From the NCBI RefSeq assembly GCF_902150065.1, contig NC_043996.1, positions 24,796,745 to 24,860,744 on the forward strand: DNA of 64,000 nt. Direction: 5' to 3'. Origin of the DNA: Myripristis murdjan (Eukaryota). The notes beneath the pieces are model-generated. The model did no database searches. It worked only from the letters and a program-made list of their open reading frames with translations, and had not been told where the DNA came from. The position numbers were made by a program, and so were the translations under genes. Below are positions 18,832-39,933 of this stretch, one piece after another; position 1 is the stretch's first letter, and the number at the start of each line of letters is the position of its first letter.

Positions 18832-18835
18832 GCGG

Positions 18836-24671: not shown

Positions 24672-24677
24672 ATTTAT
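24672..24677 (-). other. Candidate polyadenylation signal (AATAAA on the minus strand) for ApoL-like gene A
   Basis: Plus-strand 'tttatt' lies about 170 nt downstream of the gene A stop codon. Confidence 0.3.
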
Positions 24678-24846
24678 TCACGTCACACAAATCGAGAGCA
24701 AAACCGCTTCTTCCAAACACTCTGAGCCGCCGGAGGGAAATCTGCCAGGCTGCTATATGGCACAAAACAGGAAGAGGGCGCTCTGGCACAAAAAGAGCTA
24801 AATCATTTAGTGTTTTTTTACAGCATCTTTGTTTAAAAATGCCGAG

Positions 24847-26625
24847 TTAAATGTACAGTCCGTCCTCCATGGTGCCTTTTGATCGAGTGTGAGAGCCTCG
24901 GCGGGTGGGGTCGTGCCCTCTCTCCCTGTCACTGCCTCTCCTGTCTCTCTCCCTCCGCTGACTCGCCCTGCCGCCGCCGCCCTCAAACTGCATCCTCATG
25001 CTCTCCACTTTGCTCCCTCGTTTCTCCTCCCCTCGCTCCCGTTGGCTCCTCCCTGCCGCTCTTTCGTTGTGTGGCGCCGCCCCTCTCGTGTGCGAGCTCC
25101 TCTTCGCGTCCGATTCCTCCCCCCGTCTGTCCGAACGCTCTCTCCTCGCCGCGGCTTCGTGACTCCGCGATGTCTCTTTCCTCGCCTGGCCCCCCACTTC
25201 TGCTTGTTTCAAGTCTCTTTCCGTCTCTCTCTTTGATTCGCTGCCGTGCTTCTCGTCCTTACTTGCCCTTTCCGCCCTGCAGTCCCTCGCTGGAGCCTTC
25301 TCGGTCCGTCTCTCCTCGTCTCTCTGGTTGCTTCCTCTCGTTTCATCTTTGCTCCGTCTCTCGCTCCTTTCCTTCGTTCTGTCTTTCTCACTCCTGCTGC
25401 CGTGCCGGCTCGAGCTCCCTCTCTCCGCCTCTTTTTCCTTCCTCTCCCGGTCGGCTCCGTGCCGATCTCGATCCCTCTCGCTCGTCGCTCTTTCGCTCTC
25501 CGTGCTGCTCTTCCTCATTTCGGCTCCTCTGTCGCTCCTCGCCCTCTCTGGATCCGCCTTTCCGCTCCAGCTTTCTCTTTTTGGGCCGCCCGACCTGCTT
25601 TTAGCTCGCTCCTGGTCTTTTTCGTTCGTGCTCTTTTCATCCGTCTCTTTCCTCTTCTCTTCTGTCCTCTCCCTCTTGCTAGTTGTGTGTTTTTCCTTTT
25701 CCCGCTTACTCTCGTTTTTCTCCTTTTCGGTGTTCATTTGATTATCCGTTTCTTTCTCCTCCTTCCCTCCTTTGTCAGGTCGTTCCTTGGAACGCTTCTC
25801 CTTGTTTTCTTTCTCAGATTTGACACTCTCACTCTTCTCCTGTTTATTTTCATCCGGTAGCCTCTTCAGCTTGGACTCAGATTTACCCTCCATGATGCCT
25901 TCTTCCTTCTTGCTCTCCTTCTCTCCCTCTACCTTAGCATCCTTTTCTCCTTCCTCCTGTGCTTTCTCCCTCTCCTTAGCCCCTTTATTCTCTGACTCTG
26001 CTTTATCATTCTTGCTCTCCTTCTCTTTCCCCTCCTTCTTGCTCTCCATAGGTCCTTTCTCCTTCATCTGACTCTTCTTTTGCTCCTCCTCGACCTTTTT
26101 GTCCAGTTTCTCCTCCAGGAGGTCCAGCTCCTGCTCCAGCTGAGCCAGCTTCACCGGGTCCGATTCCAAATCGTCTTCCACCTCCACCTCCACCTCCTCG
26201 ATTTCCTCATACTCCTCCACCTCGATGCCGTCCATGGTCTTCTGCAGCTGAGTCTTCACTTTGTTTAGCTCCAGGAGGCCATCTTGGAGGTCTTTACATA
26301 CTTCACGGATCTTGGTAGCGAACTTGGTTTTGGCGCCCTTGCGGAGCTCGTGGGAGTCCTTGGCCAGGAAGAAGACGTCCAGGGCGAGGAACAGGGCTGA
26401 CATGACGCCCGTGGTGACGCTGATGGCCTGGGCGGCTTTGGCGGCGCCGCCCGCCGCGCCGAGGACCTGCACGGTGCTGATGAGCTTGTCGGTGTTGATC
26501 ATCAGGGCCTTGCCGGCTCGACCGCCCTCCTTCATCACGTGCTTGATGTTGTGGTTCAGAGCCTTCTTGGCCGCGCTCTCTGAGTACTTCTCAAAGTCCC
26601 ACTCCTGCAGGGTGTCCATACCTTC
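24847..26625 (-). CDS. ApoL-like gene A terminal exon: C-terminal half of the apolipoprotein-L domain followed by a ~430-aa E/K/R/S/D-rich low-complexity tail, with stop codon
   Basis: Acceptor 'cccctgcag|GAAGGTATGGAC'. The upstream frame is closed by TGA, so the intron is required. The translated sequence GMDTLQEWDFEKY...ALMINTDKLISTVQVLGAAGGAAKAAQAISVTTGVMSALFLALDVFFLAKDSHELRKGAKTKFATKIREV aligns with gene B and with the ApoL family. The tail is rich in EKEK, RERS and RDRDR runs. Confidence 0.7.
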   Translation of the reverse strand, partial: EGMDTLQEWDFEKYSESAAKKALNHNIKHVMKEGGRAGKALMINTDKLISTVQVLGAAGGAAKAAQAISVTTGVMSALFLALDVFFLAKDSHELRKGAKTKFATKIREVCKDLQDGLLELNKVKTQLQKTMDGIEVEEYEEIEEVEVEVEDDLESDPVKLAQLEQELDLLEEKLDKKVEEEQKKSQMKEKGPMESKKEGKEKESKNDKAESENKGAKEREKAQEEGEKDAKVEGEKESKKEEGIMEGKSESKLKRLPDENKQEKSESVKSEKENKEKRSKERPDKGGKEEKETDNQMNTEKEKNESKREKEKHTTSKRERTEEKRKETDEKSTNEKDQERAKSRSGGPKRESWSGKADPERARSDRGAEMRKSSTESERATSERDRDRHGADRERKEKEAERGSSSRHGSRSEKDRTKERSERRSKDETRGSNQRDEERRTEKAPARDCRAERASKDEKHGSESKRETERDLKQAEVGGQARKETSRSHEAAARRERSDRRGEESDAKRSSHTRGAAPHNERAAGRSQRERGEEKRGSKVESMRMQFEGGGGRASQRRERDRRGSDRERGHDPTRRGSHTRSKGTMEDGLYI

Positions 26626-27644: not shown

Positions 27645-28060
27645 CTGTACGAACTCCAAACACTCCCTGATGTCACTGATCTCCTCCTGGTAGCCCTGGA
27701 TCATCTTCTCCACCTTCTTACGATCCATGTTGGAGTGAACCGTGTCTGTGATGTTGGCCGTCGCCGAGGTGATGCTGCCGGCGGTCGCCACGCCGATGCC
27801 CACCGCTGTGACGATGACCGAGGCGCCGAAGGTGAAGGGCGCCAGGATGAGGCCCGTGATGGTGGCCACGCTGCCCGCCACGCTGGCCACCCCTCCCCCC
27901 ACAGCGGCCGTCACCGTCCTCTTGTGGAACTGGTCGGCGGCGTCGGCCTGGGCCAGCAGCTCCAGGATGCGGTGCTGTAAGGACGCCCCCCGCTGGTTGA
28001 AGAGACGCACAAAGAGCCGGGCTGCCATGAACACACGGTCTGCAGCCTGCTCCACCGCCC
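27645..28060 (-). CDS. ApoL-like gene A exon: N-terminal half of the ApoL domain (AVEQAADRVFMAARLF...TVTAAVGGGVASVAGSVATITGLILAPFTFGASVIVTAVGIGVATAGSITSATANI...ECLEFVQ)
   Basis: Acceptor 'tctccag|GGCGGTG' is homologous to the gene B acceptor. Donor 'gtacag|gtgagg'. The Gly/Ala-rich membrane-insertion hairpin is typical of apolipoprotein L. Confidence 0.7.
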
Positions 28061-28067
28061 TGGAGAG

Positions 28068-28102
<35 letters not shown>

Positions 28103-29488
28103 GCTGCGAGGCCTGACATCTCAGAGCAATGTGGTGTAATTAAATCGCACTGTAATGAACTAGAGGAAATTTTGGAAACTCAAACATTTTCAACTCCTGG
28201 AAAGCTCTTCAAAAACAGAAACATCCATAATGTCTTTGAAACATGAAATGTCAAGGTTACCTGCTGATGGAGCTGATAAATGAGGAGTTCATTTGCAAAA
28301 ACAGATTTCTCCATTTCAATTTATTAAACCTTTTTAAACTTTTTTGAGTTTTTTTTAAAATTTACTTTATATTTATTTCTATTTTTTATATGTTTATTTA
28401 GTCTGGCATAATGTTTATTATCCTAAATCATGCTTTGTGTGTGTGTGTGTGTGTGTATATATGTGTGTGTGTACTCCAAGCAGTATCGGTGAAAAAGGTG
28501 TATTCATTTTAAGAATGGCTTTTATCTGTTTTTGCAAATGAACTCTTCAAATATATCTAACACATCTGACTATGTTTTATCGTTCTTTTATTGAGTCTGT
28601 TATCACATTTTCCTTTATCTGTTGGTTTCAATCCTTGAAGGTTAAACAGAGAAACATACTTTACAGGGTTGTCAGTGTTAGCAGCAAAATCATGGGGTCT
28701 GCACAACAAACTCTACAAGAGCTCTACAACAAACAACTTATGAAGAAAGCAATCTCCGTCCTGTCTGACGGCTCTCATCCTTTACACCAGCCGTTCCAGT
28801 TTTTACCATCAGGTTCACTACTCAGACTCCCACTTGCAAAAACAAACAGATATAAGCGCTCCTTTGTACCCTCCGCTGTTTCTCTTTTAAATAACAGGAG
28901 GAAAAGGTAGCTGGGTGGAATAGTCTTCCTAACTTTAAAATGATCTCTCTAATTCGAGTGATCATTTATTTATTTATTTTTATTTTTATTTATTTATTTT
29001 TTTCTATAATGTGCATTTGGAATTATCTATAATGTGCACTTGGAATTGTAATTTACTATGTCATGTGTATTTGTTTACTTTGTTGTGTGTGCTTCCTCTG
29101 TTGTGAAACTAATTGCCCCACTGGGGACAAATAAAGATATTGATTGATTGATTGATTTTCTGATTATACAATTTTACAATTTTACAATTTTAAAATATAT
29201 AAATGAATATAAATGTCTCATGAGATCGCTATGCCTGTGCACAGCGAGACCTGGGACGTTCAAATTAGTTATTTAACGAAACTTTCAACACTGAAGTTGA
29301 CAAACACAGGTCATGGAAATATACTCAAAGTATAAAAAGTGGTAGAACAAGATTAGCACAAAGTAAACCTGGAACGAGGTTTCTTAAAATCTAATCTGAC
29401 ATTCATGAGCATGAATGCCACCTCATGGCAGGATTTCCTAAATGGCAAGTTAAAAAAAAAAAAAAAAAAAAAAAGATGCCCCACTTAC

Positions 29489-29540
29489 ATTTCCTCATCC
29501 TCCTCCTGAAAATTGGATGTTTCATTCCACTCGGTCCAGC
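29489..29540 (-). CDS. ApoL-like gene A small 5' exon (GWTEWNETSNFQEEDEEM; 52 nt)
   Basis: Acceptor 'ctgttaccag'; donor 'aaat|gtaagt'. It has the same 52-nt length and phase as the gene B homologue at 58890-58941. Confidence 0.55.
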
Positions 29541-29773
29541 CTGGTAACAGGATGAATACAATCAGCAGAAATTAGACAAACTCACAAAGCAGTGATTTTT
29601 AAAGTCATCAACTCTACATGTCAGAAATAGGGTTTGTGTTTAACTGGGAAAGTGAACTTTAATTTCACACCTTCTCCAGCAGTAGTTTTTTGTGGTGCTG
29701 CCCTAATACAAAGCAAACACTGCAAGCAAAAATTTATTTATTCCAAATCAAAGACGAATACGATTGCACTCAC

Positions 29774-29813
29774 CTTCGACCGATTTCCACCAGTCCATCA
29801 AGCCGTCGTTTTC
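29774..29813 (-). CDS. ApoL-like gene A small 5' exon (ENDGLMDWWKSVE; 40 nt)
   Basis: Acceptor 'cctctcag'; donor 'gaag|gtgagt'. It is paralogous to the gene B exon DVEGLMDWWNTVE (also 40 nt). Confidence 0.6.
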
Positions 29814-29891
29814 CTGAGAGGAGAGAATTATTTTAATTGAAACAGATCATGCTAGAAATACATTTACGTAGCAATCCAGAGTGGGATGTGT

Positions 29892-29929
<38 letters not shown>

Positions 29930-29931
<2 letters not shown>

Positions 29932-30004
29932 CCTCAGAGTCCAGCGGGTTGCCCTCAGTAGGATAAGCTGCCATCTCCACAGGCTGGATCTCTACTGTGC
30001 TCTC
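29930..30004 (-). CDS. ApoL-like gene A 5' exon (ESTVEIQPVEMAAYPTEGNPLDSEE; 75 nt, phase 0)
   Basis: Acceptor 'ttttccag'; donor 'gaggag|gtgtgt'. The TVE[IM]QPV motif is shared with the exon at 31201-31263. Confidence 0.5.
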
Positions 30005-31200
30005 CTGGAAAACACACACACACACACACACACATTAACACACATTTGTCAATGCACTATTTAGTCTGTTGTTACCTGTGTGCCTGTCACCTTATTATAG
30101 ATAAAGAGACGTCCTAACATGTATAAGTTGATGGTTTACATCATGATGTACAGTGGTGGAAAAAAGTTTTTGGACACCCCGTGCATTTGTGAAATATTGC
30201 ATTAAGAATCACTCTTAAATCTTCAAGTGCAATTTCTATTAGTACAGTCACAGCCAAAATACCAAACAAATCCTAAAAAAAGCCATTAAAAACATTAAAT
30301 TGATTGGTTCCATAAAAATACATAAGAAATTTTGAGTATTGGGTCATTTTGGTACCAGTGATGAAGGTCGTTCTTTTCATTAAAAGACACAATTTTTGTT
30401 GCCAAGCTTGGTGTCTATATAAAGCCAACACATTTGAAAGTTCTTCAGACACAAAAATGGCTAAAACAAGGAACCTAACGCAGGAAACACGCCTGAAGAT
30501 AAACAATAAACAAAAAAAATATAATTTGTATTTGTTTGTATCTGTTATTGTCTAAGGGTGTCTGAAAACTCTTTTCCACCACTGTTTCCCTGCACATCTG
30601 ATTTTTTTAGTCGGTGCAGCTCCATAACACCAACACTGAGAGGATAAATGGAGCCAACAAAGCTGTAAATGTATGTAAGTCAGCGGTCCTTCCCCTTGTG
30701 ACTCCTTAAAGAAATGCTCCGTCGAACGCTGCCTATGCAACAACTTTCCTTCTTTGGGTTATTTCATTGAGGAACAGAGGCTGAAAACTAGTCAGTGTGT
30801 CACAAGGAAAAAAGCAGAGGAGACAATAACAATATGAAGATGATCATTTGCACAGCAGAAATACAAATGTGCTGTTTCTTAACTATTTCTCCAACTAGTT
30901 TTACGGTGTTTGTTCCTCTCCTTAGGTGTCTATTGTCATTAAATCATATTTTACTTGATTATTCTTGATTATTACTTGATTATTACTTCTAAATATAGCC
31001 CAAAAATGATCTTATGACCCTTTGCAAGGTCATGACCCCGAGAATGAGAACAGGTACTGTAAGGTGTGTTAGATAAAAGCAGACATATAACAGCTTATAC
31101 TATGAGATGAAGTTGACAAAACAATAAAAGCCACAGCTTTGGATGGAGAAGTGACAGCAGAGGCTGACTGTGTGTCCTACTGGGTGTCTGTCTGTCTAAC

Positions 31201-31263
31201 CTGTGTTGTGTTCACGGGCTGCATCTCCACAGTCTCCTCGAGAATCGGCAGCTTGTCAGAACT
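31201..31263 (-). CDS. Linker exon (SSDKLPILEETVEMQPVNTTQ; 63 nt, phase 0) between the repeat array and the ApoL exons
   Basis: Acceptor 'cctcccacag'; donor 'acacag|gttaga'. Confidence 0.4.
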
Positions 31264-31539
31264 CTGTGGGAGGAATAATAATAATAATAAAAAAATAAAA
31301 AAAAAGATCAAATTTTCCTCAATGACACTGTAATAAACTGCTTTTTGATGCTAGGAGTAACACAGTATTTCACACACATTCATAATCATACCATGCATCA
31401 TAAACAAGAAAGAGAAATATTGAGGAAATAATCTCTTGTTGGTTAAGACATATAGAGAGGCATGAGACTGGAAGGTTGCTGGTTTGAGTCCTGAGGCTGT
31501 GTGAGCAAAGTGAAAGTGTGATCGCTCTCTTTCCTCATT

Positions 31540-31650
31540 AACTAAGATAAGATAAGATAAGATAAGATAAGATATTCCTTTATTAGTCCCACGGTGGGGA
31601 AATTTCAAGCATTACAGCAGCAAAGTGGATAGCAAAATATGAAGCATAAT
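31540..31650. repeat. Copy 2 of the dispersed repeat family, with a (GATAA)6 head
   Basis: Directly visible identity with the copy at 26835-26935. Confidence 0.7.
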
Positions 31651-31899
31651 TTACATTATAAACAGTATAAACAGATAATAAATAGCAAAAAGCAATATAA
31701 ACATTATAAACTAACATGAATGTGCCCTTGAGCAAGGCACTTTACCAAAAATCCCCTCAGAGGCATTCATCAGAGTAAGAAGCTTGCAATGTGAAGAGGT
31801 TCTGAGTGCATGACAACACCTTCCCACGAATAAATAAAAAGGTAAAATAAAAGATAGCAGAGGTGTTTGACAGTAATAAACAGAGGACGGCAGCGATAC

Positions 31900-31962
31900 C
31901 TGAGTGTTGAAGTTAAGTTTGGGAATTCTGGGAAGAGTTTTCTTGACTCGGAAAGAGACAAC
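31900..31962 (-). CDS. Linker exon (VVSFRVKKTLPRIPKLNFNTQ; 63 nt, phase 0)
   Basis: Acceptor 'ctccttcag'; donor 'actcag|gtatcg'. Confidence 0.4.
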
Positions 31963-32276
31963 CTGAAGGAGAAAAAATTTTAAAAAAGCCTTGATGGTGC
32001 AAAGTCTGTTTTATTTAATTGCATTTATTTTACCATTTTTCCAGATATAAAATCTTTATCCTATCCTATCCCGTGACCTTTGACCTTCAAAAATCCCACA
32101 AAAAGTAGTTACGGCACTTTCACTTGCATCATCATTATTTAAAAAAAAAAAAAAAAAAATACTGATACACACTAAAATGTGTTTTAATCACACAGAAATA
32201 CACTCTTATCTCACACGCTTATTACAGTGATTCTAGTTGATGCAGTTCTCCATCACATCACCGGATGACAACTCAC

Positions 32277-32351
32277 CCGTCTCTTCTTCTTGATGGTCCT
32301 CCGGCGCCTCAGCTGACTGCCGCCCTCTGGTGGCTCCATGTCCTCACTGTC
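32277..32351 (-). CDS. Linker exon (DSEDMEPPEGGSQLRRRRTIKKKRR; 75 nt, phase 0; basic NLS-like run)
   Basis: Acceptor 'ctccatcag'; donor 'gacgg|gtgagt'. Confidence 0.45.
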
Positions 32352-33135
32352 CTGATGGAGGAACACACACACACACACTGCCCTCTGTAACTGCTCTACA
32401 AACACAGATGTGAGATCCAGACGTCTGCAGGGTGCCAGTTACCCGGCTCAGCCACTTATTCTGAACATTTTTCCATCCACTGACTGTAGAGACAGTGAAG
32501 TGCTGAACATCATGATGTGGAAAATGAAAATGGCAAACACACGGGTTCAGATCTGGGTCACATCATTATAAATATGAGGTTTGGATGGGAATCTGCAAGT
32601 AGAGATAAAGACCATCCGGCTTTGATCCTCCTCTGTCTGTTGTTACAACTACAGTTACTACTAAAGTCATTACAGCTACTGCCACTACTGTAAAAACATC
32701 TACTGGTATGTTTAAGTTCTTTTATTAGGATAACCCCTTGAGATGAAGCATCTCGTTTTCGAGGGGGTCCTAAACACAGCACAAAGAAAAAGACATTATT
32801 TTGACAGACATAAATTTGACAAACAAAGCAGTAAATAAATCATGACAGAAACTTAAAAAGAACCAAAAACAAGCAAAAATTAAACATAGAGCCTACAATT
32901 ACAACATATTAAACAACAGAATAATGATCATTCTAGAGATATCCCGGCGTTATTGTAAAATATAAAAGAAAAATGTCAGTGAAAGGGAAGAAATATTAAG
33001 TGTACATGTACAATTGGTATGCAGATGACTTGCCAAGGCATGTTTAAGGCATGTAGTGCTACTAAAGTACAGTGAATGACATTGTGCTGGAAGAAAACAA
33101 GTTTCTCCTTCCCCTCAGTGCTGATAACGTCGTAC

Positions 33136-33195
33136 CTGCTGCTCCACTGCTTTAGGAGTCCTCCTGAACATGCCAGCGAACCCCGTTTTCTTTTC
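33136..33195 (-). CDS. Repeat-array exon, basic type (EKKTGFAGMFRRTPKAVEQQ; 60 nt)
   Basis: Acceptor 'ctgacacag'; donor 'cagcag|gtacga'. Shares the motif family [QE]EKGG.FSG.FKK.PK. Confidence 0.5.
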
Positions 33196-33734
33196 CTGTG
33201 TCAGAAACACACGAGGCGGTAAGACAGCGGGCATGCAGACGTGCTGGGAAAATCAAGTGGGATCACTGTGCTCGACTCACTTTTGAGGCGCCTGTCGCTT
33301 CAATCAGATTATCGGTGCTGGCTGACAGTTCACTTTGTGCTAAAAGATTGTCCTAAAAAAAAAAAAAAAAAAAAAAAAAACAAAGAGGAAAAAAGGCTCA
33401 TTTTTAAGCTTCTGTGTTGTCGGCTATCATACAGTGATATTAGGCACATTTTGGGCAGGGGAGAAGAGAAATGATTTCAGCAAAAGGCAAGAAAGAAAGA
33501 CACAAAGCTTCCTGAAGGTCACGAGTTGTTCCTGTGATTAAAATTGCTTGTGGTGATAATACACAAGGCACTTTAGGCAAATTAGAGAGAAAAAAAAATA
33601 GGCCTAAGATGCATTTTTATGGTTCCTGGCAACATGATGTTTTTTATATGAGTGAAGCCACAGTGACGAGGCGGTTCTCGTGCACGGTGTCCTGCCGGTA
33701 TTACCCGACATGGTGGCCCTCAGGTCGCTCTCAC

Positions 33735-33797
33735 CTTGGCGATGTCGGTGAGGCTGTCCCAGCTGGCCGACAGCTCCCTCGAGTCGCTGAGAGGATC
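33735..33797 (-). CDS. Repeat-array exon, acidic type (DPLSDSRELSASWDSLTDIAK; 63 nt)
   Basis: Acceptor 'ttttcccag'; donor 'gccaag|gtgaga'. Carries the LSAS.DSL motif. Confidence 0.5.
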
Positions 33798-34920
33798 CTG
33801 GGAAAAAAACAGCAGGGGTGTTAGACATCACATGTGGGCTGCATTATATTTATATTATATTTTCTAGTTCTGTTTATATTATATATACACTGTTTACATT
33901 TATATAGGCTGTTTATATTTATTACATATACGGTTTATAGTTTATACATGCTGTTTATATTTATACATATTGTTTACAATTGATATATACTGTTTATACT
34001 TATATATTTTATATTTAAATTTTTTTTTCTTTTCCTATTTTTTTTTTTTTTTTTTTTGTTACCTTGCTTTATTTATTTATTTAGGCTTATACTGGGACCT
34101 GAGTCCTAATTTCGTACCATTAACGTGTAAATGTGAGCTGGTATGACAATAAAGTTCCTTGAATCCTTAAATCCTTGATGGCTGTTGTTTTTTTCCCAAG
34201 AAAGCCTGAAGCGTGTGGCGCTGAAGCCAAACACGAAAATGACAAGGTGGAGCGTAGCACTCACACAGTCAGTAGCGGTTTTAGGCACGGGCGAAGCGGG
34301 CAGCCGCCCGGGGCGGCATATATTCATGTCACGTGGGGGGCGGCATGAGAGCAAAAAAAAAAAAAAAATCATCCTCGCTGCAAAGCAGTTTTCTATGACC
34401 GTATTCATCTGCATATAAGACAATATTTTTTCCATTGAAAATGCCCCGAAAAAACGCCCTCGTCTAATATTGGGGTCTAAGCAAACACACATGTATTGTG
34501 CTTGCATATAAACCAGTAGGTGGGCTCGCCTGATACCGCAATTACCGGCGAATGGCCGCATTGCGCAGTCAATAATCAACCATGTTGTCTGTGTCATTGT
34601 CCGCTGTGCTGCTGCAGCCGCGTATGAACAAAAGTTGATTTATAATGAGAGGATGGCAGTATGTGTGCGCCGCTCACCTGTCAGATCCGGCAGACCTGAC
34701 CGGGTGGGCGCGGCACCTGTAGGCATCAAGCCGGTGCCGCGACCGGCCCGCCTGATGCTGACCAGTGGCTTTTTTTTATGCAAACAAGATTTTGTTCATA
34801 TAAAAAGTATTTTTCCAAAAAAGGTATTTGTGCAGGTGTTGGCGCCCCTGCTCTGGGAGGGGCGCGTCTAGCCGCCAGAGGGGCACCGGTAACGGCCGTT
34901 ATCGCTTGGAAGTCCTCGCC

Positions 34921-34950
34921 TTGTGCGCGCGCGCGCGCGCGCACGCGCGG
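34921..34950. repeat. (GC)n dinucleotide tract 'gcgcgcgcgcgcgcgcgcacgcgcgg' (Z-DNA-prone) inside a GC-rich island
   Basis: Seen directly in the sequence. The flanking region 34250-35000 has far higher CpG density than the surrounding introns. Confidence 0.8.
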
Positions 34951-35448
34951 GGCTAGAACGGTAGGGCGCAAGACAGTAATTTCGCCCAGGGCGGCAACAT
35001 GGGCAGAACCGCCACTGCACACAGTTTAGAAACATATTACATAAACCTCAATTACAACATGATTTATTTGGTCATATCAGTGAAAATAATGCACCGACTT
35101 GATCTAGATGGCCTTTATTAGGACATAATGGTATAAGTGAGGTCCTGCATCTTTTTGCTTTATTTTCTGTTTCAACCTGCTTCAGTTATTTGCACATACT
35201 ATTTGACCCTGGTCTGGTTAGCATCTGCTTCTCAGATGGGAGCACAACAAGGGGTCTGAGATGTTTTTTTAAATTTTTAGTTTAAAAAATATGAGTCAGG
35301 CATAATAACTAAAACAATTAGTCTTTGCTAAGGTAGGTAAGGTCTACAAATTGAAATTGAAATTACAATTGAGAAATATCATCAGTATTAGGTTGTTATT
35401 TCAGACACTGATGGGGCTCGGTTGCACCTCTTTTTGTTTTTTTTAATA

Positions 35449-35484
<36 letters not shown>

Positions 35485-35621
35485 CCACTGGTCAGGGCAT
35501 ACTTGGCTGAAAAAATATGTCACATTCATTTTACATTACTGAAAAAAGTTTGAGAACCACTGGCGTAAAGCATGCAGATGAGAGCTCGCGTTGACAGAAA
35601 CACATTTACACACCTGATAAA

Positions 35622-35668
<47 letters not shown>

Positions 35669-35705
35669 TCAACACAAGCCAAACAGAATCACAGTATTTG
35701 CATAC

Positions 35706-35777
35706 CTTGGTGGCGACAGTGCGTGGAGCTGGTTTGGGAGACTTTTTGAAGAAGCCTGAGAGGCCTCCCGCCTTCTC
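35706..35777 (-). CDS. Repeat-array exon, basic type (EKAGGLSGFFKKSPKPAPRTVATK; 72 nt)
   Basis: Acceptor 'gtttttcag'; donor 'accaag|gtatgc'. Confidence 0.55.
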
Positions 35778-35781
35778 CTGA

Positions 35782-35820
<39 letters not shown>

Positions 35821-35923
35821 ACCGTCATCAGTGAAGGACCAGAGAAAACCAGACCGAGACGGAGAAACGGAGAACAAGGTAACATCTCCAGATAATTTAC
35901 TGGGCGTACCTTCGATGCTGTCG

Positions 35924-35992
35924 TGTCTGAGAGGTTTTCACAGCTGGCAGACAACCGGTCCATTCCTGCGTTCGACTCCTGCAACAGGAAAT
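35924..35992 (-). CDS. Repeat-array exon, acidic type (ESNAGMDRLSASCENLSDTTASK)
   Basis: Acceptor 'cctgttgcag'; donor 'tcgaag|gtacgc'. Confidence 0.55.
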
Positions 35993-36116
35993 AAAGCGCG
36001 GTACAGACTAAAGCCAGTGCAATGAGCAATGTGGCTAAGACTTTAAAGGCAAAGTTCACTTTAAATATCCTGTTTAATGTGCTGTAAACTTCTGTGTCAA
36101 GGTTGAATAAAGTCAC

Positions 36117-36183
36117 CTCATCTGCTGTAGTCTCCTCTGCTGGTTTAGGAGCCTTCTTAAATATCCCACTGAAAATATTTTTC
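36117..36183 (-). CDS. Repeat-array exon, basic type (EKNIFSGIFKKAPKPAEETTADE)
   Basis: Acceptor 'ctttag'; donor 'gatgag|gtgact'. Confidence 0.5.
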
Positions 36184-36536
36184 TCCTAAAGAAAATACAG
36201 TCAACAATACTCAGGTTACCCAAAATATATCAGCATTACAACAGTGGAGCTCTGGACAGAAGACGGACAAACTGAAATCCAAAGCTTTTAGGCAGCAACA
36301 TGTGGACTCGTGATGAATTGAAAAGCAAAATTACAGAACTTGCATAATATTCAGATTTTTTTTTTTTTTTTTTTTACAGTAAAAGCACGACAACAACCAG
36401 TGAAAACTAAATGAAACATTTTGGTTCCATTACTTGTTGCGGCAGGTTAAAATACACATTTTAAAGTTGCTTCAGGTCCCAGATCTTTCTGTTTAATTCA
36501 AAAGCAGCGATATTTCTCATCGTACCTTAGTGCTGA

Positions 36537-36590
36537 TGTTCTCCGACAGGCTGTCATTGCTTGCAAAGAGCTCTTTGTCCTGAGACAGAG
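36537..36590 (-). CDS. Repeat-array exon, acidic type (DKELFASNDSLSENISTK; 54 nt)
   Basis: Acceptor 'tgtctcag'; donor 'actaag|gtacga'. Confidence 0.55.
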
Positions 36591-36665
36591 AAGTGAACTC
36601 AATTTCAGCACATAAAAATCACAGAGGTGACGCTGTATGAGTGAATATGACACCAGACGCACGCT

Positions 36666-36737
36666 CACCTGACCAGCAGCCTCTTCTCCAGAGGCTTTGG
36701 GTGTTTTCTTGAGGAGTCCGCTGAACAGCCCTCCTTT
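36666..36737 (-). CDS. Repeat-array exon, basic type (EKGGLFSGLLKKTPKASGEEAAGQ; 72 nt)
   Basis: Acceptor 'tgttcaccag'; donor 'ggtcag|gtgagc'. Confidence 0.55.
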
Positions 36738-37013
36738 CTCCTGGTGAACAGAGAGAGGGGTTAGACTAGGGAAAAAAAAAACAAGTAAATTTAATGCGAA
36801 TTCTGAAATTCCCATTAAACTGTGGTGAGGTCAATCAAAAAATTCCAACCAACAGTATATTGCAGATTTTGAACAGTCCTTGCATTAAGATAAAAGCGCC
36901 TTTCGTTAAGTCCCGCCCCAACATCCAGTTTCAACAGGATTTGAATCAAATTCAAGGAAGCAAGATGCTTTTTCAGTCCTGCTCCAGGCCGTGACGTGTG
37001 ACACTGACCTCAC

Positions 37014-37076
37014 TGTCAAACAGGTCGTCAGTGCTGGCGGACCTCTTGAATATGCCGGACAGGCCTCCCTTCTTCT
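37014..37076 (-). CDS. Repeat-array exon, basic type (EKKGGLSGIFKRSASTDDLFDSE)
   Basis: Acceptor 'ctgttttag'; donor 'agtgag|gtcagt'. Confidence 0.45.
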
Positions 37077-37401
37077 CCTAAAACAGACACTTCAGTTATT
37101 TCAGAAAACTTAATGTTCGCAAAAACAAGAGGAAAACGGGTTCAGCGTGGTTTCCACCATCTGATCAGAACCACAAAGCAGATTTAACTCATTTTGCTAC
37201 TGAATTATGAGGATCCCTTGGGAAAGGTAATGAACTGTGAACATAGTAATACAATAATAAGAACATAATGTTAAGCTTTATGAGCAGTTTAAGAGCAATG
37301 CAAGATTAAAGTAAAATTAAGATAATATTAAAACAGAAAAATAAAAGATGCAAGAGGGAAGATCTTCTATAAGACCAAGCTGAGAGAAAAATGAGAATGA
37401 A

Positions 37402-37473
37402 CCTTGGGGACGGTGGTTTGTATGAGATTCTCACAGCTTCCAGAGATCTGCTCTCGGCTGCTCTCCTCCAGCT
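37402..37473 (-). CDS. Repeat-array exon, acidic type, copy 4 of the tandem unit (ELEESSREQISGSCENLIQTTVPK)
   Basis: Acceptor 'ggactcag'; donor 'ccccaag|gttcat', which is a weak donor. Confidence 0.4.
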
Positions 37474-37561
37474 CCTGAGTCCAGACAGAAAAAGGTGAAC
37501 ACACAAACGCTCGGTCCTCAGGATACAAATAATGAGAGTTTTAAAAACTGTGGTCAAATAC

Positions 37562-37630
37562 CTCGTCTGTTGTGGCTCCATCAGCTGGTTTCTGTGGCTT
37601 CTTAAACATGTTGCTGAAGATGCTTTTCTC
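37562..37630 (-). CDS. Repeat-array exon, basic type, copy 4 of the tandem unit (EKSIFSNMFKKPQKPADGATTDE)
   Basis: Acceptor 'catgtttcag'; donor 'gacgag|gtattt'. Confidence 0.5.
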
Positions 37631-37924
37631 CTGAAACATGACAGAAATGATTTGAACAAAAAGGTTTTCTCATTTTATCTACAAGAGCGCATTCAGGTAT
37701 CAGGAAAGGCAAAAAAATGATATTTTAACATCTCTACTATAAACACAGTGAAGCAATGTAAACAGAATTATCATCTCATATTGTCTGTTTCATGTTGCAT
37801 ATTTTTATGGGAAGCATCTTTGGGTCTCTTGAAATCCCCTATGTAAATTTAAATTCTTCTTCTTCTTAATATACTCTTATCTCTACATGATCAGGTGTTA
37901 ATATTCACAAAGAAAGACAAAAAT

Positions 37925-37995
37925 GAGAATGAACCTTGGGGACGGTGGTTTGTATGAGATTCTCACAGCTTCCAGAGATCTGCTCTCGGCTGCTC
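37925..37995 (-). CDS. Repeat-array exon, acidic type, tandem copy 3
   Basis: Near-identical to 37402-37473 and sits inside the ~535-bp tandem unit. Confidence 0.4.
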
Positions 37996-38103
37996 TCCTC
38001 CAGCTCCTGGGTCCAGACAGAAAAAGGTGAACACACAAACGCTCGGTCCTCAGGATACAAATAATAAGAATTTAAAATTAAAATTAAAATTTTTGTTCAC
38101 ATA

Positions 38104-38173
38104 CCTCGTCTGTTGTGGCTCCATCAGCTGGTTTCTGCGGCTTCTTAAACATGTTGCTGAAGATGCTTTTCTC
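38104..38173 (-). CDS. Repeat-array exon, basic type, tandem copy 3 (EKSIFSNMFKKPQKPADGATTDE)
   Basis: Carries the same flanks as 37562-37630. Confidence 0.5.
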
Positions 38174-38458
38174 CTGAAACATGACAGAAATGATTTGTAC
38201 AAAAGGTTTTCTCATTTTATCTACAAGAGCTTGTTCAGGAATCAGGAAAGGGAAAAAATGATACTTTAACATCTCTACTGTAAACACAGTAAAGCAATGT
38301 AAACATTATCATTATCATCTCCTATTGTCTGTTTCACGTTGCATGTTTTTATGTAAAGCATCTTTGGGTCCCTTGAAATCCGCTATGTAATGTTATTATT
38401 ATCATCACTACACTCGTATCTCTACATGGTCAGGTGTTTATTTTCACAAAAAAATGAG

Positions 38459-38530
38459 AATGAACCTTGGGGACGGTGGTTTGTGTGAGATTCTCACAGC
38501 TTCCAGAGATCTGCTCTCGGCTGCTCTCCT
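38459..38530 (-). CDS. Repeat-array exon, acidic type, tandem copy 2 (ELEESSREQISGSCENLTQTTVPK)
   Basis: Tandem-unit copy. Confidence 0.4.
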
Positions 38531-38627
38531 CCAGCTCCTGAGTCCAGACAGAAAAAGGTGAACACACAAACGCTCGGTCCTCATGATACAAATAATGAGC
38601 AACTTTTAGATTTGGTTCACATACCTC

Positions 38628-38696
38628 GTCTGTTGTGGCTCCATCAGCTGGTTTCTGCGGCTTCTTAAACATGTTGCTGAAGATGCTTTTCTCCTG
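38628..38696 (-). CDS. Repeat-array exon, basic type, tandem copy 2
   Basis: Tandem-unit copy. Confidence 0.5.
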
Positions 38697-39004
38697 AAAC
38701 ATGACAGAAATTATTTGAACAAAAAGGTTTTCTCATTTCATCTACAAGAGCTCATTCAGGTAACAGAATCAGTATTGGAAAGGGAAAAAAATGATATTTT
38801 AACATCTCTACTATAAACACAGTGAAGCAATGGAAACAGAATTATCATCTCATATCGTCTGTTTCATGTTGCATTATTTTATGGAAAGCATCTTTGGGTT
38901 TCTTGAAATCCGCTATGTACATTTAAATTCTTCTTCTTATTATCATCACTACACTCTTATCTCTGCATGATCAGGTTTCAGTATTCACAAAAAAAAAGAC
39001 AAAA

Positions 39005-39076
39005 ATGAAAATGAACCTTGGGGACGGTGGTTTGTATGAGATTCTCACAGCTTCCAGAGATCTGCTCTCGGCTGCT
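39005..39076 (-). CDS. Repeat-array exon, acidic type, tandem copy 1
   Basis: Tandem-unit copy. Confidence 0.4.
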
Positions 39077-39176
39077 CTCCTCCAGCTCCTGAGTCCAGAC
39101 AGAAAAAGGTGAACACACAAACGCTCGGTCCTCATGATACAAATAATTAGAATTTTAAAAACTGTGGTCAAATACC

Positions 39177-39245
39177 TCGTCTGTTGTGGCTCCATCAGCT
39201 GGTTTCTGCGGCTTCTTAAACATGTTGCTGAAGATGTTTTTCTCC
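39177..39245 (-). CDS. Repeat-array exon, basic type, tandem copy 1 (EKNIFSNMFKKPQKPADGATTDE)
   Basis: Tandem-unit copy with one substitution (S to N). Confidence 0.5.
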
Positions 39246-39339
39246 TGAAACATGCCAGAAATGAATTTGAAGGTGTGACTGAAAAGTGCCTGTCTGGTCA
39301 TTTTACCTGCAGGAGCTCGTCACAAAGCGACTCACTTTA

Positions 39340-39405
39340 CTGCTGCTGTTCTCAGACAGGTTGTCCCTGCTGGACGAGAGCTCTTTCTGGGCGTCTTTGT
39401 CCTGA
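39340..39405 (-). CDS. Repeat-array exon, acidic type (DKDAQKELSSSRDNLSENSSSK)
   Basis: Acceptor 'ctgtttcag'; donor 'agtaaa|gtgagt'. Confidence 0.5.
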
Positions 39406-39490
39406 AACAGAGAAATTTGTGTCGGATGAAACTGTGAGGAAAGTGAACGGAGGCTTGGACGGCGCCTTTATAATCACAACGAGTCTCTCA

Positions 39491-39561
39491 CCTGTGAATC
39501 GGCCTTTTCTCCAGGCGCTTTGGGGGTCTTTTTGAGGAGCCCGCTGAACAGCCCGCCTCTC
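39491..39561 (-). CDS. Repeat-array exon, basic type (ERGGLFSGLLKKTPKAPGEKADSQ)
   Basis: Acceptor 'tgcaccag'; donor 'tcacag|gtgaga'. Confidence 0.55.
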
Positions 39562-39676
39562 TCCTGGTGCACAGACAAACAAATATTTACATATCAAAAG
39601 GTGAATTATCAAATGGTCATTTTACTGAAACAAATGAATCACAAACCCAGTTCATTTAGTCTGAAACCCTGACCGA

Positions 39677-39736
39677 CCTTGTTGTCAGATAAACTCTCAT
39701 TGCTGGCAGAGAGCTCGCCATGCAGAGACTCCTTAT
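39677..39736 (-). CDS. Repeat-array exon, acidic type (DKESLHGELSASNESLSDNK)
   Basis: Acceptor 'ctacag'; donor 'aacaag|gtcggt'. Confidence 0.5.
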
Positions 39737-39892
39737 CCTGTAGAAAAATAAATAAATCACAAATAACCATGAAACTTGCAGTAATAGCAAATGTTATGCA
39801 GTCAAGACTCAGTAAAAATGACAAAAATTTGGAAATAAATGGAGTTGCTGCTGTAAACAGTGTCCAAGGAAAAATGCTGCAATTATGATTTA

Positions 39893-39933
<41 letters not shown>

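What the first reader, a model, noticed from the sequence alone, without database searches (positions are those of the whole stretch)
24847..25950. ApoL-like gene A carries a ~400-aa ultra-charged E/K/R/S/D low-complexity C-terminal tail that is absent from paralog B
After the conserved ApoL C-terminal helix (…KTKFATKIREVCKDLQDGLLELNKVKTQLQ), the open reading frame continues for about 430 codons. It is composed almost entirely of E, K, R, S, D, G and T (EKEKNESKREKEKHTT…RDRDRHGADRERKEKEAERGSSSRHGSRSEKDRTKERSERRSKDETRGSNQRDEERR…). Paralog B ends only about 45 residues after the equivalent helix. RS/RD/RE-rich tails are characteristic of nuclear speckle and SR-like proteins or of polyelectrolyte spacers. 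Such a tail is not a known feature of apolipoprotein L. On the plus strand it generates long spurious Pro/Ser/Leu-rich ORFs because of the purine-rich coding strand.
Basis: partly seen in the sequence, partly recalled or inferred. Interest (0 to 1): 0.6.

Follow-up and report, generated by a model that had tools for sequence, protein, structure and literature searches.

The report
Charged disordered tail of fish apold1a
The long, highly charged tail on this fish apolipoprotein-L-like gene is real coding sequence and is shared by the same gene (apold1a) in most spiny-rayed fishes, so it is a conserved, already annotated but unstudied disordered extension rather than a one-off oddity.

Summary
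On the minus strand the last exon (26625 to 24847) continues 464 codons past the ApoL C-terminal helix, from 26241 to 24850. This frame has no stop codons, against 8 and 23 in the other two. None of 5000 dinucleotide shuffles was stop-free.

The gene is the teleost orthologue of predicted 'apold1a'. Dozens of fish proteins carry a collinear 214-550 aa tail. In spiny-rayed fishes it ends in a conserved ...DGL(N/Y)I C-terminus. Spliced cDNA-like contigs from other species join the ApoL exons to the tail in one ORF.

Tail dN/dS is 0.18-0.53 in the coding frame only (about 1 in shifted frames), against 0.05-0.13 for the ApoL part.

The tail has four parts:
- an acidic linker;
- a conserved zipper-like helix;
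- a lysine/glutamate-rich stretch conserved mainly in composition;
- an arginine-rich half with conserved short motifs, including RRGS.

AlphaFold2 predicts coil (pLDDT below 50) from about tail residue 63 onwards. The tail fails a published RS-domain definition and has no basic NLS cluster, so the SR-like reading is not supported.

Gar and paddlefish relatives and paralog B lack the tail.

Best reading: a membrane-tethered disordered mixed-charge scaffold. Its function is inferred, not shown. Interest is moderate to low.

The parts
24847..26625 (-). Last exon of gene A (teleost apold1a orthologue): C-terminal half of the ApoL domain, the whole tail and the stop codon
   Evidence: Acceptor tgcag|GAAGGT at 26625. 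The frame is open down to TAA at 24847-24849. Pfam ApoL PF05461 matches residues 45-119 of the ORF. Etheostoma, Cottoperca, Pelmatolapia and Anarhichas have the same single-exon layout.
27645..28059 (-). Preceding exon of gene A: N-terminal half of the ApoL domain, including the Gly/Ala/Val-rich hydrophobic hairpin
   Evidence: Pfam ApoL E=8.7e-22. Splice sites were read. It is 89-96% identical to fish orthologues.
26242..26325 (-). Last ApoL helix (LZ2-type, ...KFATKIREVCKDLQDGLLELNKVKTQLQ), after which the tail begins
   Evidence: AlphaFold2 helix at exon residues 101-131. The columns are invariant or nearly invariant across 35 fish proteins.
26158..26232 (-). Acidic linker (DGIEVEEYEEIEEVEVEVEDDLESD), net charge per residue about -0.4
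   Evidence: coil. Conserved from eel and zebrafish to percomorphs.
26059..26157 (-). Conserved amphipathic helix (PVKLAQLEQELDLLEEKLDKKVEEEQKK...) with 3-4 spacing of Leu/Val, an extra zipper-like helix
   Evidence: AlphaFold2 helix at exon residues 157-189, pLDDT about 85. Nearly invariant columns. Also present in zebrafish apold1a, and its beginning in apold1b-named proteins.
25552..26058 (-). Lysine/glutamate-rich (KEKE-type) half of the tail, predicted disordered
   Evidence: K 49 against R 11 in the first half of the tail. Nearly contiguous KEKE-type stretches at tail residues 36-211. pLDDT below 50, coil. Positional similarity to orthologues beyond composition is weak except for the closest one: z = 13 for Cottoperca, about 0-3 for most others.
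24850..25551 (-). Arginine-rich mixed-charge half (R/E/S/D/G) with conserved short motifs (GSxxRHxSRSxKD, DxRAE, SRSHE, RGEEKRGSxVESxRxQFE, RRGSDRE)
   Evidence: K 16 against R 52. Conserved islands. Alignment scores are 8-21 SD above composition-preserving shuffles for Cottoperca, Micropterus, a cichlid, a poeciliid and a Logan transcript contig of unnamed species (P0026). dN/dS for this half is 0.26-0.31.
24850..24942 (-). C-terminal module: two RRGS basophilic-kinase-type sites (24931-24942 and 24892-24903) and the terminal ...MEDGLYI-COOH motif
   Evidence: RRGS at tail residues 434 and 447. The ending (L/M)xDGL(N/Y/D/H)I occurs in about 30 orthologues from many acanthomorph orders.
24673..24678 (-). 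AATAAA polyadenylation-signal-like hexamer about 170 nt after the stop codon
   Evidence: Read directly. Function not tested.
29488..50454 (-). Upstream exons of gene A: many small exons encoding repeats of a ...KEK(K)GGxFxGxFKKxPKP... motif (approximate extent)
   Evidence: tblastn of orthologues P0001, P0003, P0026 and P0123 against the window.
57751..58707 (-). Last exon of paralog B (apol1-type ApoL gene) with a short 51-aa C-terminal end
   Evidence: Pfam ApoL E=4.9e-38. 85% identical to guppy 'apolipoprotein L1' P0158, including the short ...DRIKKAIKK end.

Best explanation
The region is the translated C-terminal extension of the window's orthologue of teleost apold1a. This is a large, multi-exon, membrane-associated ApoL-domain protein.

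The tail is a near-neutral, intrinsically disordered polyampholyte appended directly to the last ApoL helix. It has four modules:
1. an acidic linker;
2. a conserved zipper-like helix;
3. a roughly 170-aa lysine/glutamate (KEKE-type) stretch whose composition, rather than sequence, is conserved;
4. a roughly 230-aa arginine-rich mixed-charge stretch that carries conserved short linear motifs. These include two RRGS kinase-type sites and a conserved hydrophobic C-terminus, ...DGL(N/Y)I.

Shown here: it is coding, under purifying selection, conserved across acanthomorph fishes, and absent from the gar and paddlefish relatives and from paralog B.

Inferred: the tail most likely lies on the cytosolic side of the membrane that holds the ApoL hairpin. 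There the K/E part would act as a flexible, non-sticky spacer. The R-rich end would act as a regulated (phosphorylatable) docking or cohesive module for partner proteins or anionic surfaces. This would add a scaffold function to the membrane-remodelling ApoL core.

The tail probably arose in the teleost 'a' lineage by expansion of purine-rich coding sequence beyond the shared acidic-plus-helix segment.
For: Coding status:
- The coding frame has 0 stops, against 8 and 23 in the other frames. None of 5000 shuffles was stop-free.
- Third-position base composition differs from positions 1 and 2.
- Tail dN/dS in frame is 0.18-0.53 (Fisher p from 5e-5 to 1e-32). The same nucleotides read in shifted frames give 0.84-1.28, not significant.
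- Logan contigs L001/P0013, P0016 and P0026 are intron-less. They join upstream exons, both ApoL exons and the tail in one ORF, followed by a 3' UTR.
- The same single-exon layout is found in four other genomes.

Orthology and conservation:
- 445 hits. The top 120 are all fish ApoL-domain proteins, many named apold1a, 550-1270 aa long.
- Tails of 214-487 aa with 50-60% charged residues and the shared ending ...DGLxI.
- The window's tail aligns end to end with Cottoperca at 48% identity.
- Conserved islands. R-half similarity is 8-21 SD above shuffles.
- K-to-R polarity is present in all 15 orthologues tested; it is clear in 13 and weakest in a poeciliid and the eel.

Disorder and architecture:
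- AlphaFold2 gives a helix at exon residues 157-189 (pLDDT about 85), then coil with pLDDT below 50 to the end.
- Net charge is +2 and the fraction of charged residues is 0.5-0.68.
- No Pfam family matches the tail.

Lineage restriction:
- Gar and paddlefish relatives (53-54% identical) end about 20-25 aa after the helix.
- apold1b-named proteins end after the start of the helix. Cypriniform apold1a tails are 50-80 aa.
- The other ApoL-family proteins checked (teleosts, bichir, lungfish and a caecilian) are 244-322 aa.

Cytosolic side (inference): orthologue N-termini (MEACMMKPE.KRKPK.PKPPPK...) have no hydrophobic signal-peptide-like start. The main hydrophobic element is a hairpin. RRGS sites are conserved.
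Against: - There are no expression, proteomic or localisation data for this species or any fish apold1a. Translation of the tail is inferred from evolution, not observed.
- Topology is uncertain. If the second hydrophobic helix (HC2-type, ...GVMSALFLALDVFFLAKD) spans the membrane, the tail would be luminal or extracellular and the kinase-site reading would fail.
- The K/E half shows almost no positional conservation outside close relatives, and tail dN/dS is 3-5 times that of the ApoL domain. Part of the tail may therefore be only weakly constrained.
- Protein-guided alignments bias dN downwards somewhat.
- One annotation (Oryzias javanicus P0086) ends right after the helix, and the Dissostichus assembly has a frameshift inside the tail. 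Tail-less isoforms or losses cannot be excluded.
- The eel tail shows no positional similarity, so a single origin is not proven.
Confidence: 0.6

Rival explanations
1. The tail is translated but largely non-functional. It would be a tolerated, drifting low-complexity expansion of GA-rich codons, with selection acting only against aggregation or toxicity and on the proximal helix. The ApoL core would do all the work.
For: - Low positional conservation of the K/E half (z about 0-3 for most species).
- Large length variation: 214-550 aa among long-tailed species, only 50-80 aa in cypriniforms, none in gar and paddlefish.
- Tail dN/dS is several times higher than in the ApoL domain.
- No domain hit.
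Against: - dN/dS is clearly below 1 in both halves.
- The distal R-rich half, farthest from the folded domain, is the better conserved half (z = 8-21).
- The extreme C-terminus and the RRGS sites are conserved across orders.
- The K-to-R polarity is kept in all 15 orthologues tested, though weakly in a poeciliid and the eel.
Confidence: 0.2
2. The tail is luminal or extracellular and works like the KEKE-rich tails of triadin and junctin or other charged luminal tails. It would bind cations or acidic/basic cargo proteins inside a secretory or storage organelle. Mammalian APOLD1 localises to Weibel-Palade bodies, which makes this conceivable.
For: - The proximal half is nearly continuous KEKE-type sequence.
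- ApoL proteins have a debated second membrane-inserting helix (HC2) just upstream of the tail (PMC11726835).
- APOLD1 localises to Weibel-Palade bodies and cell contacts (PMC9973481 abstract).
Against: - Orthologue N-termini have no signal peptide.
- Conserved RRGS-type sites suit cytosolic basophilic kinases.
- There is only one cysteine in the tail, and I noticed no conserved N-glycosylation sequon (not systematically tested).
- Orthology with mammalian APOLD1 rests on pipeline names only.
Confidence: 0.1
3. This is the first reader's idea: an SR-like or nuclear-speckle type domain. The tail, or a cleaved fragment, would target the nucleus or speckles or bind RNA.
For: - The distal half resembles arginine-enriched mixed-charge domains. 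The charge ratio is about 1, and 79% of Arg codons are the GA-type AGA/AGG/CGA.
- Such domains drive speckle condensation (bioRxiv 10.1101/771592) and are encoded by purine-rich mRNA (PMC12629991).
- If every serine were phosphorylated, 149 windows would pass the mixed-charge-domain threshold.
Against: - The RS-domain criterion is not met: S+R reaches at most 0.43, against 0.6 required.
- The mixed-charge-domain criterion (fraction of charged residues >= 0.7) is narrowly missed, at 0.683.
- There is no K/R cluster of 4 or more residues and no bipartite NLS pattern. RS dipeptides are sparse and not in runs.
- The tail is fused to a membrane-hairpin protein of more than 1000 aa.
- No RNA-binding domain is present.
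Confidence: 0.07
4. The region is not coding. It would be a purine-rich 3' UTR or low-complexity DNA in which an ORF is open by chance because T is rare.
For: The sense strand has only 7% T, so stop codons are rare. The antisense strand shows chance ORFs of up to 250 codons.
Against: - Shuffles still give a mean of 10.6 stops in frame, and none of 5000 was stop-free. The other two sense frames have 8 and 23 stops.
- dN/dS below 1 is frame-specific.
- The ORF is conserved, with the stop placed right after a conserved motif, in many species.
- Spliced cDNA-like contigs exist.
Confidence: 0.02

Closest known systems
Predicted teleost apold1a proteins (zebrafish si:rp71-1g18.13 / 'apolipoprotein L domain containing 1a'; RefSeq and UniProt models such as Cottoperca gobio LOC115022310, Pelmatolapia mariae apold1a)
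   Same: - The architecture is the same from end to end: N-terminal GGxFxGxFKK-motif repeats, the WW-rich segment, an ApoL domain (89-96% identical over its N-terminal exon), acidic linker, helix, K/E-rich stretch, R-rich stretch and the ...DGLxI C-terminus.
- The ApoL C-terminal part and the tail lie in one exon.
   Different: - Tail sequence identity is only 31-48%, and lengths differ.
- Zebrafish and other cypriniform members have only 50-80 aa after the helix.
- None of these proteins has been studied experimentally, as far as the searched library shows.
Mammalian APOLD1 (VERGE) and APOL1-6
   Same: They share the ApoL domain (PF05461): a hydrophobic hairpin flanked by amphipathic helices and a C-terminal hairpin of a hydrophobic helix plus a leucine-zipper helix. 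The family has a role in membrane insertion and remodelling (PMC11726835).
   Different: - No charged tail is described in the APOLD1/ApoL passages of the two ApoL papers read. From my own knowledge, mammalian proteins end at or soon after the LZ2 helix, and human APOLD1 is about 279 aa.
- They lack the long N-terminal repeat region.
- Orthology of fish 'apold1a' to APOLD1 is a pipeline assignment that I did not test. The literature traces APOLD1 only to amniotes (PMC8557400).
Paralog B in the same window (apol1-type ApoL gene, 57751-58707)
   Same: 46% identical ApoL domain. It lies on the same strand about 31 kb upstream. Its orthologues also have N-terminal GGxFGGMFKK-type repeats.
   Different: It ends 51 aa after the helix with a different, conserved short end (...DRIKKAIKK...). 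There is no intron inside the ApoL domain.
Arginine-enriched mixed-charge domains of nuclear speckle proteins (Greig et al., bioRxiv 10.1101/771592) and their GA-rich mRNAs (Faraway et al., PMC12629991)
   Same: The distal half is R/E/D/S-rich and near neutral. It is encoded by purine-rich sequence with mainly AGA/AGG/CGA arginine codons.
   Different: - It narrowly misses the published threshold for the fraction of charged residues (0.683 against 0.7).
- It fails the RS-domain threshold.
- It has no NLS and sits on a membrane protein.
KEKE-motif tails of membrane-anchored proteins such as triadin and junctin (definition recalled from Realini et al. 1994)
   Same: A membrane-anchored protein followed by long alternating K/E stretches that lack aromatic residues and proline.
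   Different: - There is no sequence homology.
- Those tails are luminal, in the sarcoplasmic reticulum.
- Here the topology is unknown and the distal half is arginine-based.

Membership tests
Apolipoprotein L family (Pfam PF05461) | Significant match to the ApoL profile above the curated cut-off | tested here: met
   The exon at 27645-28059 scores 78.3 bits and the last exon 34.2 bits, against a cut-off of 25.9. Together they cover profile positions 49-297 of 298.
Apolipoprotein L family (Pfam PF05461) | Gly/Ala/Val-rich hydrophobic hairpin plus a C-terminal pair of a hydrophobic helix and a leucine-zipper helix | tested here: met
   The sequence ...VGGGVASVAGSVATITGLILAPFTFGASVIVTAVGIGVATAGS... 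was read. AlphaFold2 places helices at exon residues 60-88 and 101-131. The description of the family is taken from PMC11726835.
Teleost apold1a orthologue group | Best matches are apold1a-type proteins, collinear over the ApoL domain and the tail, including the C-terminal motif | tested here: met
   The window tail aligns over residues 1-464 with Cottoperca P0001 residues 580-1029.
Teleost apold1a orthologue group | Conserved gene neighbourhood (synteny) | not tested
   Only the Cottoperca locus was fetched with flanks. Its neighbours were not compared with the window.
Mammalian APOLD1 orthologue | Phylogenetic placement with tetrapod APOLD1 rather than with other ApoL genes | not tested
   The name comes from annotation pipelines. 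Other pipelines call the same fish proteins 'apolipoprotein L3' or 'L6'. The nearest non-teleost relatives found are gar and paddlefish 'apolipoprotein L6-like' proteins.
Protein-coding sequence | Open frame beyond chance, frame-specific purifying selection, and presence in spliced transcripts | tested here: met
   Transcript evidence comes from other species, not from the window's own species.
RS domain (SR proteins) | Ser+Arg fraction >= 0.6 in a 60-aa window with S:R about 1 (Greig et al. methods) | tested here: not met
   The maximum S+R fraction is 0.43 in the window and 0.20-0.42 in 13 orthologues. There are 15 scattered RS/SR dipeptides.
Mixed-charge domain (MCD) | Fraction of charged residues >= 0.7 and positive/negative ratio 1 +/- 0.3 in a 60-aa window | tested here: inconclusive
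   The window's maximum is 0.683 at ratio 1.05, so no window passes. Several orthologues pass (for example P0012 with 33 windows). 149 windows would pass if all Ser counted as phosphorylated.
Classical nuclear localisation signal | Cluster of 4 or more K/R residues, or a bipartite KR-(10-12)-KRK pattern | tested here: not met
   A regular-expression scan found none. This is a crude test and no dedicated NLS predictor was available.
Single alpha-helix (SAH) E/K domain | Long uninterrupted E/K/R helix | tested here: not met
   AlphaFold2 predicts coil with pLDDT below 50 for exon residues 191-592. Gly, Ser and Pro are interspersed throughout.
KEKE motif | At least 12 aa, more than 60% K+E/D, no W/Y/F/P, no 5 like charges in a row (definition recalled from memory) | tested here: met
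   Six stretches of 17-61 aa cover most of tail residues 12-211.
Tandem-repeat protein region | Head-to-tail repeated units at the DNA or protein level | tested here: not met
   TRF finds only six short, weak arrays of 2-6 copies with scores of 62 or less.

The most novel reading that the evidence does not exclude
The tail may be a membrane-tethered mixed-charge module with a built-in division of labour: a non-cohesive K/E spacer followed by a cohesive, phospho-tunable R-rich end. It would nucleate a charge-driven condensate or coat on the cytosolic face of ApoL-containing membranes. This would be a teleost-specific way of coupling an ApoL membrane-remodelling core to phase separation.

In parallel, its 1.4-kb purine-rich coding RNA could subject the mRNA to GA-multivalency-dependent nuclear capture of the kind described for R-MCD genes.
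Probability: 0.1. Interest if true: 0.65.

Novelty: new member of a known kind. Interest (0 to 1): 0.33.

Why it matters
The result corrects the picture of the ApoL family, which has been drawn almost entirely from mammals. In teleosts the apold1a lineage is a protein of roughly 700 to more than 1600 aa in which the ApoL core sits between a repeated N-terminal motif region and a conserved mixed-charge tail. Automatic names such as 'titin homolog', 'myb-like protein X' and 'neurofilament medium polypeptide' hide this.

For annotation, the tail should be kept as coding sequence, and models that cut it off are probably wrong.

For biology, it offers a natural experiment. Long-tailed acanthomorphs, short-tailed cypriniforms and tail-less gar can be compared to ask what a charged disordered tail adds to an ApoL membrane protein. 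No function is shown yet, and similar low-complexity extensions are common, so the finding is useful but not surprising.

Tried and rejected
1. Searching 5.8 billion proteins with the distal R-rich half alone (24850-25551) gave no hit at E <= 0.001. It therefore gave no evidence that the tail was captured from another gene. HMMER's composition correction probably also hid the true orthologues. I replaced this with shuffle-calibrated local alignments.

2. Looking up the window's own 590-aa ORF product in the assembly index found nothing. The species and its transcripts remain unidentified.

3. Three orthologue look-ups (P0061, P0032, P0029) returned no locus. This limited the number of close species pairs for dN/dS. 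The only very close pair (Anarhichas genome against a Logan transcript) has too few substitutions: 7 synonymous and 18 non-synonymous.

4. A literature search for apold1a, apold1b or rp71-1g18.13 returned no papers. The APOLD1-plus-zebrafish and ApoL-plus-teleost searches turned up nothing whose title or abstract concerned a fish ApoL tail.

5. The tandem-repeat origin was rejected.

6. The single alpha-helix reading was rejected.

7. The RS-domain and NLS reading was rejected.

8. A coding role for the plus-strand ORFs was rejected, because composition alone explains them.

9. Fold search was not used, because the model is mostly disordered (mean pLDDT 45.5) and matches would be meaningless.
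Full report
**1. What is in the sequence**

The window is vertebrate (teleost) DNA. On the minus strand an exon starts at the acceptor tgcag|GAAGGT at 26625 and stays open to a TAA at 24847-24849. It is in frame with an upstream exon at 27645-28059, whose donor is GTACAG|gtgagg. Both exons match Pfam ApoL (PF05461) above the curated cut-off. Together they cover profile positions 49-297 of 298.

After the last ApoL helix (...KFATKIREVCKDLQDGLLELNKVKTQLQ) the frame continues for 464 codons, from 26241 to 24850. Its coordinates (24847-25950) cover only the distal four fifths of the tail, and the true length is 464 codons rather than about 430.

The tail is 21% E, 14% K, 14% R, 10% S, 7.5% G and 6.5% D, with a net charge of +2. 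An AATAAA hexamer lies about 170 nt after the stop codon.

**2. Is the open frame more than chance?**

The sense strand of the tail has only 7% T, so open frames are cheap and the question is a fair one. The other two sense frames nevertheless contain 8 and 23 stops. Dinucleotide-preserving shuffles give a mean of 10.6 in-frame stops, with a minimum of 2, and none of 5000 was stop-free.

The antisense (plus-strand) ORFs are different. The longest open run is 250 codons, against a shuffle mean of 270, and 55% of shuffles reach or exceed it.

The region is not a tandem repeat. No Pfam family matches it.

**3. Comparative evidence that it is coding**

A search with the joined ApoL exons plus tail returned 445 proteins. 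The 120 listed are all fish ApoL-domain proteins of roughly 400-1280 aa. Many are named apold1a or si:rp71-1g18.13. Others carry low-complexity-driven automatic names such as 'titin homolog', 'myb-like protein X' or 'neurofilament medium polypeptide'.

I measured the part of each protein that follows the conserved helix.
- Acanthomorph species have tails of 214-487 aa with 50-60% charged residues. These include notothenioids, centrarchids, cichlids, medaka, poeciliids, percids, pipefishes, soles and anabantoids.
- About 30 of these tails end in (L/M)xDGL(N/Y/D/H)I followed by the stop. The window ends ...TMEDGLYI.

The window's tail aligns end to end with that of Cottoperca gobio at 48% identity.

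In genomic loci from Etheostoma, Cottoperca, Pelmatolapia and Anarhichas, the tail lies in the same single open exon as the ApoL C-terminal part.

Three Logan contigs (L001/P0013, P0016, P0026) are intron-less. They run through upstream exons, both ApoL exons and the whole tail in one ORF, so they are spliced transcripts. L001 continues into about 1 kb of 3' UTR.

Nei-Gojobori estimates on protein-guided codon alignments give the values below.

| Region and reading frame | dN/dS | Significance |
|---|---|---|
| Tail, coding frame | 0.18-0.53 | Fisher p from 5e-5 to 1e-32 |
| Tail, same nucleotides shifted by 1 or 2 | 0.84-1.28 | not significant |
| ApoL C-terminal part | 0.05-0.13 | - |

Neither is met with the data available. 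Direct transcript data for the window's own species are still missing (one search found nothing).

**4. Anatomy of the tail**

A 21-35 species alignment and an AlphaFold2 model of the last exon show four modules.
- (a) An acidic linker at 26232-26158 with net charge per residue about -0.4. It is predicted coil.
- (b) A helix at 26157-26059 (PVKLAQLEQELDLLEEKLDKKVEEEQKK), pLDDT about 85. It has 3-4 spaced Leu/Val and is nearly invariant across fish, including zebrafish and eel.
- (c) A lysine/glutamate-rich stretch at 26058-25552. By the KEKE-motif definition as I recall it, this is almost continuous KEKE sequence.
- (d) An arginine-rich R/E/S/D/G stretch at 25551-24850.

From exon residue 191 to the end the model is coil with pLDDT below 50, which is consistent with intrinsic disorder.

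Charge is well mixed. Net charge per residue stays within about ±0.1 along modules (c) and (d), and the fraction of charged residues is 0.4-0.68.

The base switches from lysine to arginine near tail residue 200-230. Counts are K 49 and R 11 in the first half, then K 16 and R 52 in the second. The same polarity appears in all 15 orthologues tested. It is clear in 13 of them and weakest in a poeciliid and the eel.

Against composition-preserving shuffles, the R-rich half retains positional similarity to five distant fishes.

| Comparison | z (SD above shuffles) |
|---|---|
| Cottoperca | 21 |
| Micropterus | 16 |
| A cichlid | 10 |
| A poeciliid | 8 |
| Logan transcript contig P0026 (species not named) | 8 |

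For medaka and a pipefish the R-half signal is weak (z = 2 and 4). The K/E half is positionally similar to the two closest species (Cottoperca z = 13, Micropterus z = 9) and otherwise only in composition (z about 0-3).

Conserved islands in the R half include GSxxRHxSRSxKD, DxRAE, SRSHE, RGEEKRGSxVESxRxQFE, RRGSDRE and the C-terminus. Two RRGS sites fit basophilic-kinase consensus. That reading is an inference.

**5. Phylogenetic distribution**

An exhaustive search of 1.84 billion cluster representatives with the ApoL domain, followed by name look-ups, gave the following.
- The closest clusters are 1300-1700 aa teleost proteins from Solea, Dunckerocampus, Eucyclogobius and Pungitius. All have tails.
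- The nearest non-teleost relatives are from spotted gar (412 aa) and paddlefish (390 aa). They are 53-54% identical and share the upstream D/EWW motif. They end about 20-25 aa after the helix.
- Proteins named apold1b stop within the conserved helix segment, 32-44 aa after the ApoL helix. Cypriniform apold1a has 50-80 aa.
- An eel protein has a 270-aa charged tail with no positional similarity to the window's.
- The other ApoL-family proteins checked, from teleosts, bichir, lungfish and a caecilian, are 244-322 aa.

The long tail is therefore restricted to the teleost apold1a lineage. In its recognisable form it is at least as old as acanthomorphs, and it also shows positional similarity to the transcript P0026, whose species I could not name. 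Whether the eel tail and the short otophysan tails reflect one origin with later loss, or independent expansions, is open.

**6. Paralog B and gene context**

Paralog B (last exon 57751-58707, minus strand) is 46% identical to gene A in the ApoL domain. It is 85% identical to guppy 'apolipoprotein L1', including its short conserved end ...DRIKKAIKK.

Orthologue exons map from about 29.5 kb to at least 45.6 kb, and probably to 50.4 kb. They encode many copies of a KEK(K)GGxFxGxFKKxPKP motif.

**7. How it most likely works**

Shown: the tail is a translated-type, conserved, disordered polyampholyte attached to a membrane-hairpin protein.

Inferred:
- Orthologue N-termini lack a signal-peptide-like start.
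- The main hydrophobic element is a hairpin.
- Conserved RRGS sites are present.

For these reasons I place the tail on the cytosolic side. There the K/E segment would serve as a flexible, weakly interacting spacer. The R-rich end, with its conserved motifs and hydrophobic C-terminus, would be the interacting and probably phospho-regulated part.

Work on mixed-charge domains shows that arginine, not lysine, gives cohesion (bioRxiv 10.1101/771592). This makes the conserved K-to-R polarity meaningful, but it remains an analogy.

My confidence that this is the conserved coding tail of apold1a is about 0.95. My confidence in the scaffold/spacer mechanism is about 0.4-0.5.

**8. Rivals**

- The non-coding reading is effectively excluded.
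- The SR-like or speckle reading fails the published RS-domain threshold (S+R at most 0.43 against 0.6). It narrowly misses the mixed-charge-domain threshold (0.683 against 0.7) and has no basic NLS cluster.
- A luminal KEKE-type binding tail, like those of triadin and junctin, remains possible if the HC2-type helix crosses the membrane.
- A largely neutral low-complexity expansion is the main rival for the K/E half. It does not explain the conserved distal half.

**9. Novelty and verdict**

The window's gene is one more orthologue of a protein family that is already predicted in many fish genomes. The tail is therefore not new as sequence. I found no paper that mentions apold1a or apold1b, and the ApoL papers I consulted treat APOLD1 as a short, amniote-traceable protein.

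I rate the finding as a new member of a known, though unstudied, kind, with moderate to low interest. It is a sound observation, a useful annotation point, and a possible entry to how disordered mixed-charge tails modify ApoL membrane proteins. It is not a surprise to a specialist in low-complexity regions, and its function is unproven.

Noticed in passing
window 29488-50454 (minus strand): Gene A is far larger than the two ApoL exons. More than 20 small upstream exons encode repeats of a ...SASxDSLS...KEK(K)GGxFxGxFKKxPKP... motif that is also found in orthologues (up to about 1600 aa) and, in a variant form, in orthologues of paralog B. The function of the motif is unknown; it may be an amphipathic membrane-binding peptide.
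   Followed up: partly
window 37387-39300: A segment of about 540 bp is repeated four times in tandem (61-94% identity). Each copy carries one of the N-terminal motif exons of gene A, which suggests recent exon-block duplication.
   Followed up: partly
L007 16616-16682 (Dissostichus eleginoides): The orthologous tail is split by a frameshift. The annotators ended the gene there and called the rest as a separate 289-aa gene. The downstream part is still open and homologous to its end, so this looks like an assembly error or a very recent change.
   Followed up: no
P0086 (Oryzias javanicus) and P0060 (Chanos chanos) protein models: Some public gene models cut the tail off right after the helix (...QLQRHG). 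Another fuses a short tail to an unrelated domain (PF03351). Annotation of this exon is inconsistent across species.
   Followed up: no
window 6056-6400 (plus strand): An exon encodes an RRM domain (Pfam RRM_1, E=7.7e-14). Its sequence ([23 protein letters not shown]...) resembles hnRNP C/RALY-type proteins, from memory, so a neighbouring gene lies about 18 kb from the tail.
   Followed up: partly
window 28572-28910 (plus strand): A 112-aa ORF (MFYRSFIESVITFSFICWFQ...SFVPSAVSLLN) lies in the intron upstream of the ApoL exon. From memory it looks like the C-terminal fragment typical of a fish retroelement ORF. Pfam gave no significant hit.
   Followed up: partly
window 28063-28100, also 15082-15456, 16814-17191, 18620-19031, 35526-36116: There are CT/GA and CA/GT dinucleotide microsatellites. 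One is a (CT)n run immediately upstream of the acceptor of the ApoL exon at 28059.
   Followed up: no
window 57751-63276 (minus strand): Paralog B lies in tandem, on the same strand and upstream of gene A. It has no intron within its ApoL domain, whereas gene A has one at 26626-27644. Upstream exons of B map to at least 63276, so the gene probably runs off the window.
   Followed up: partly
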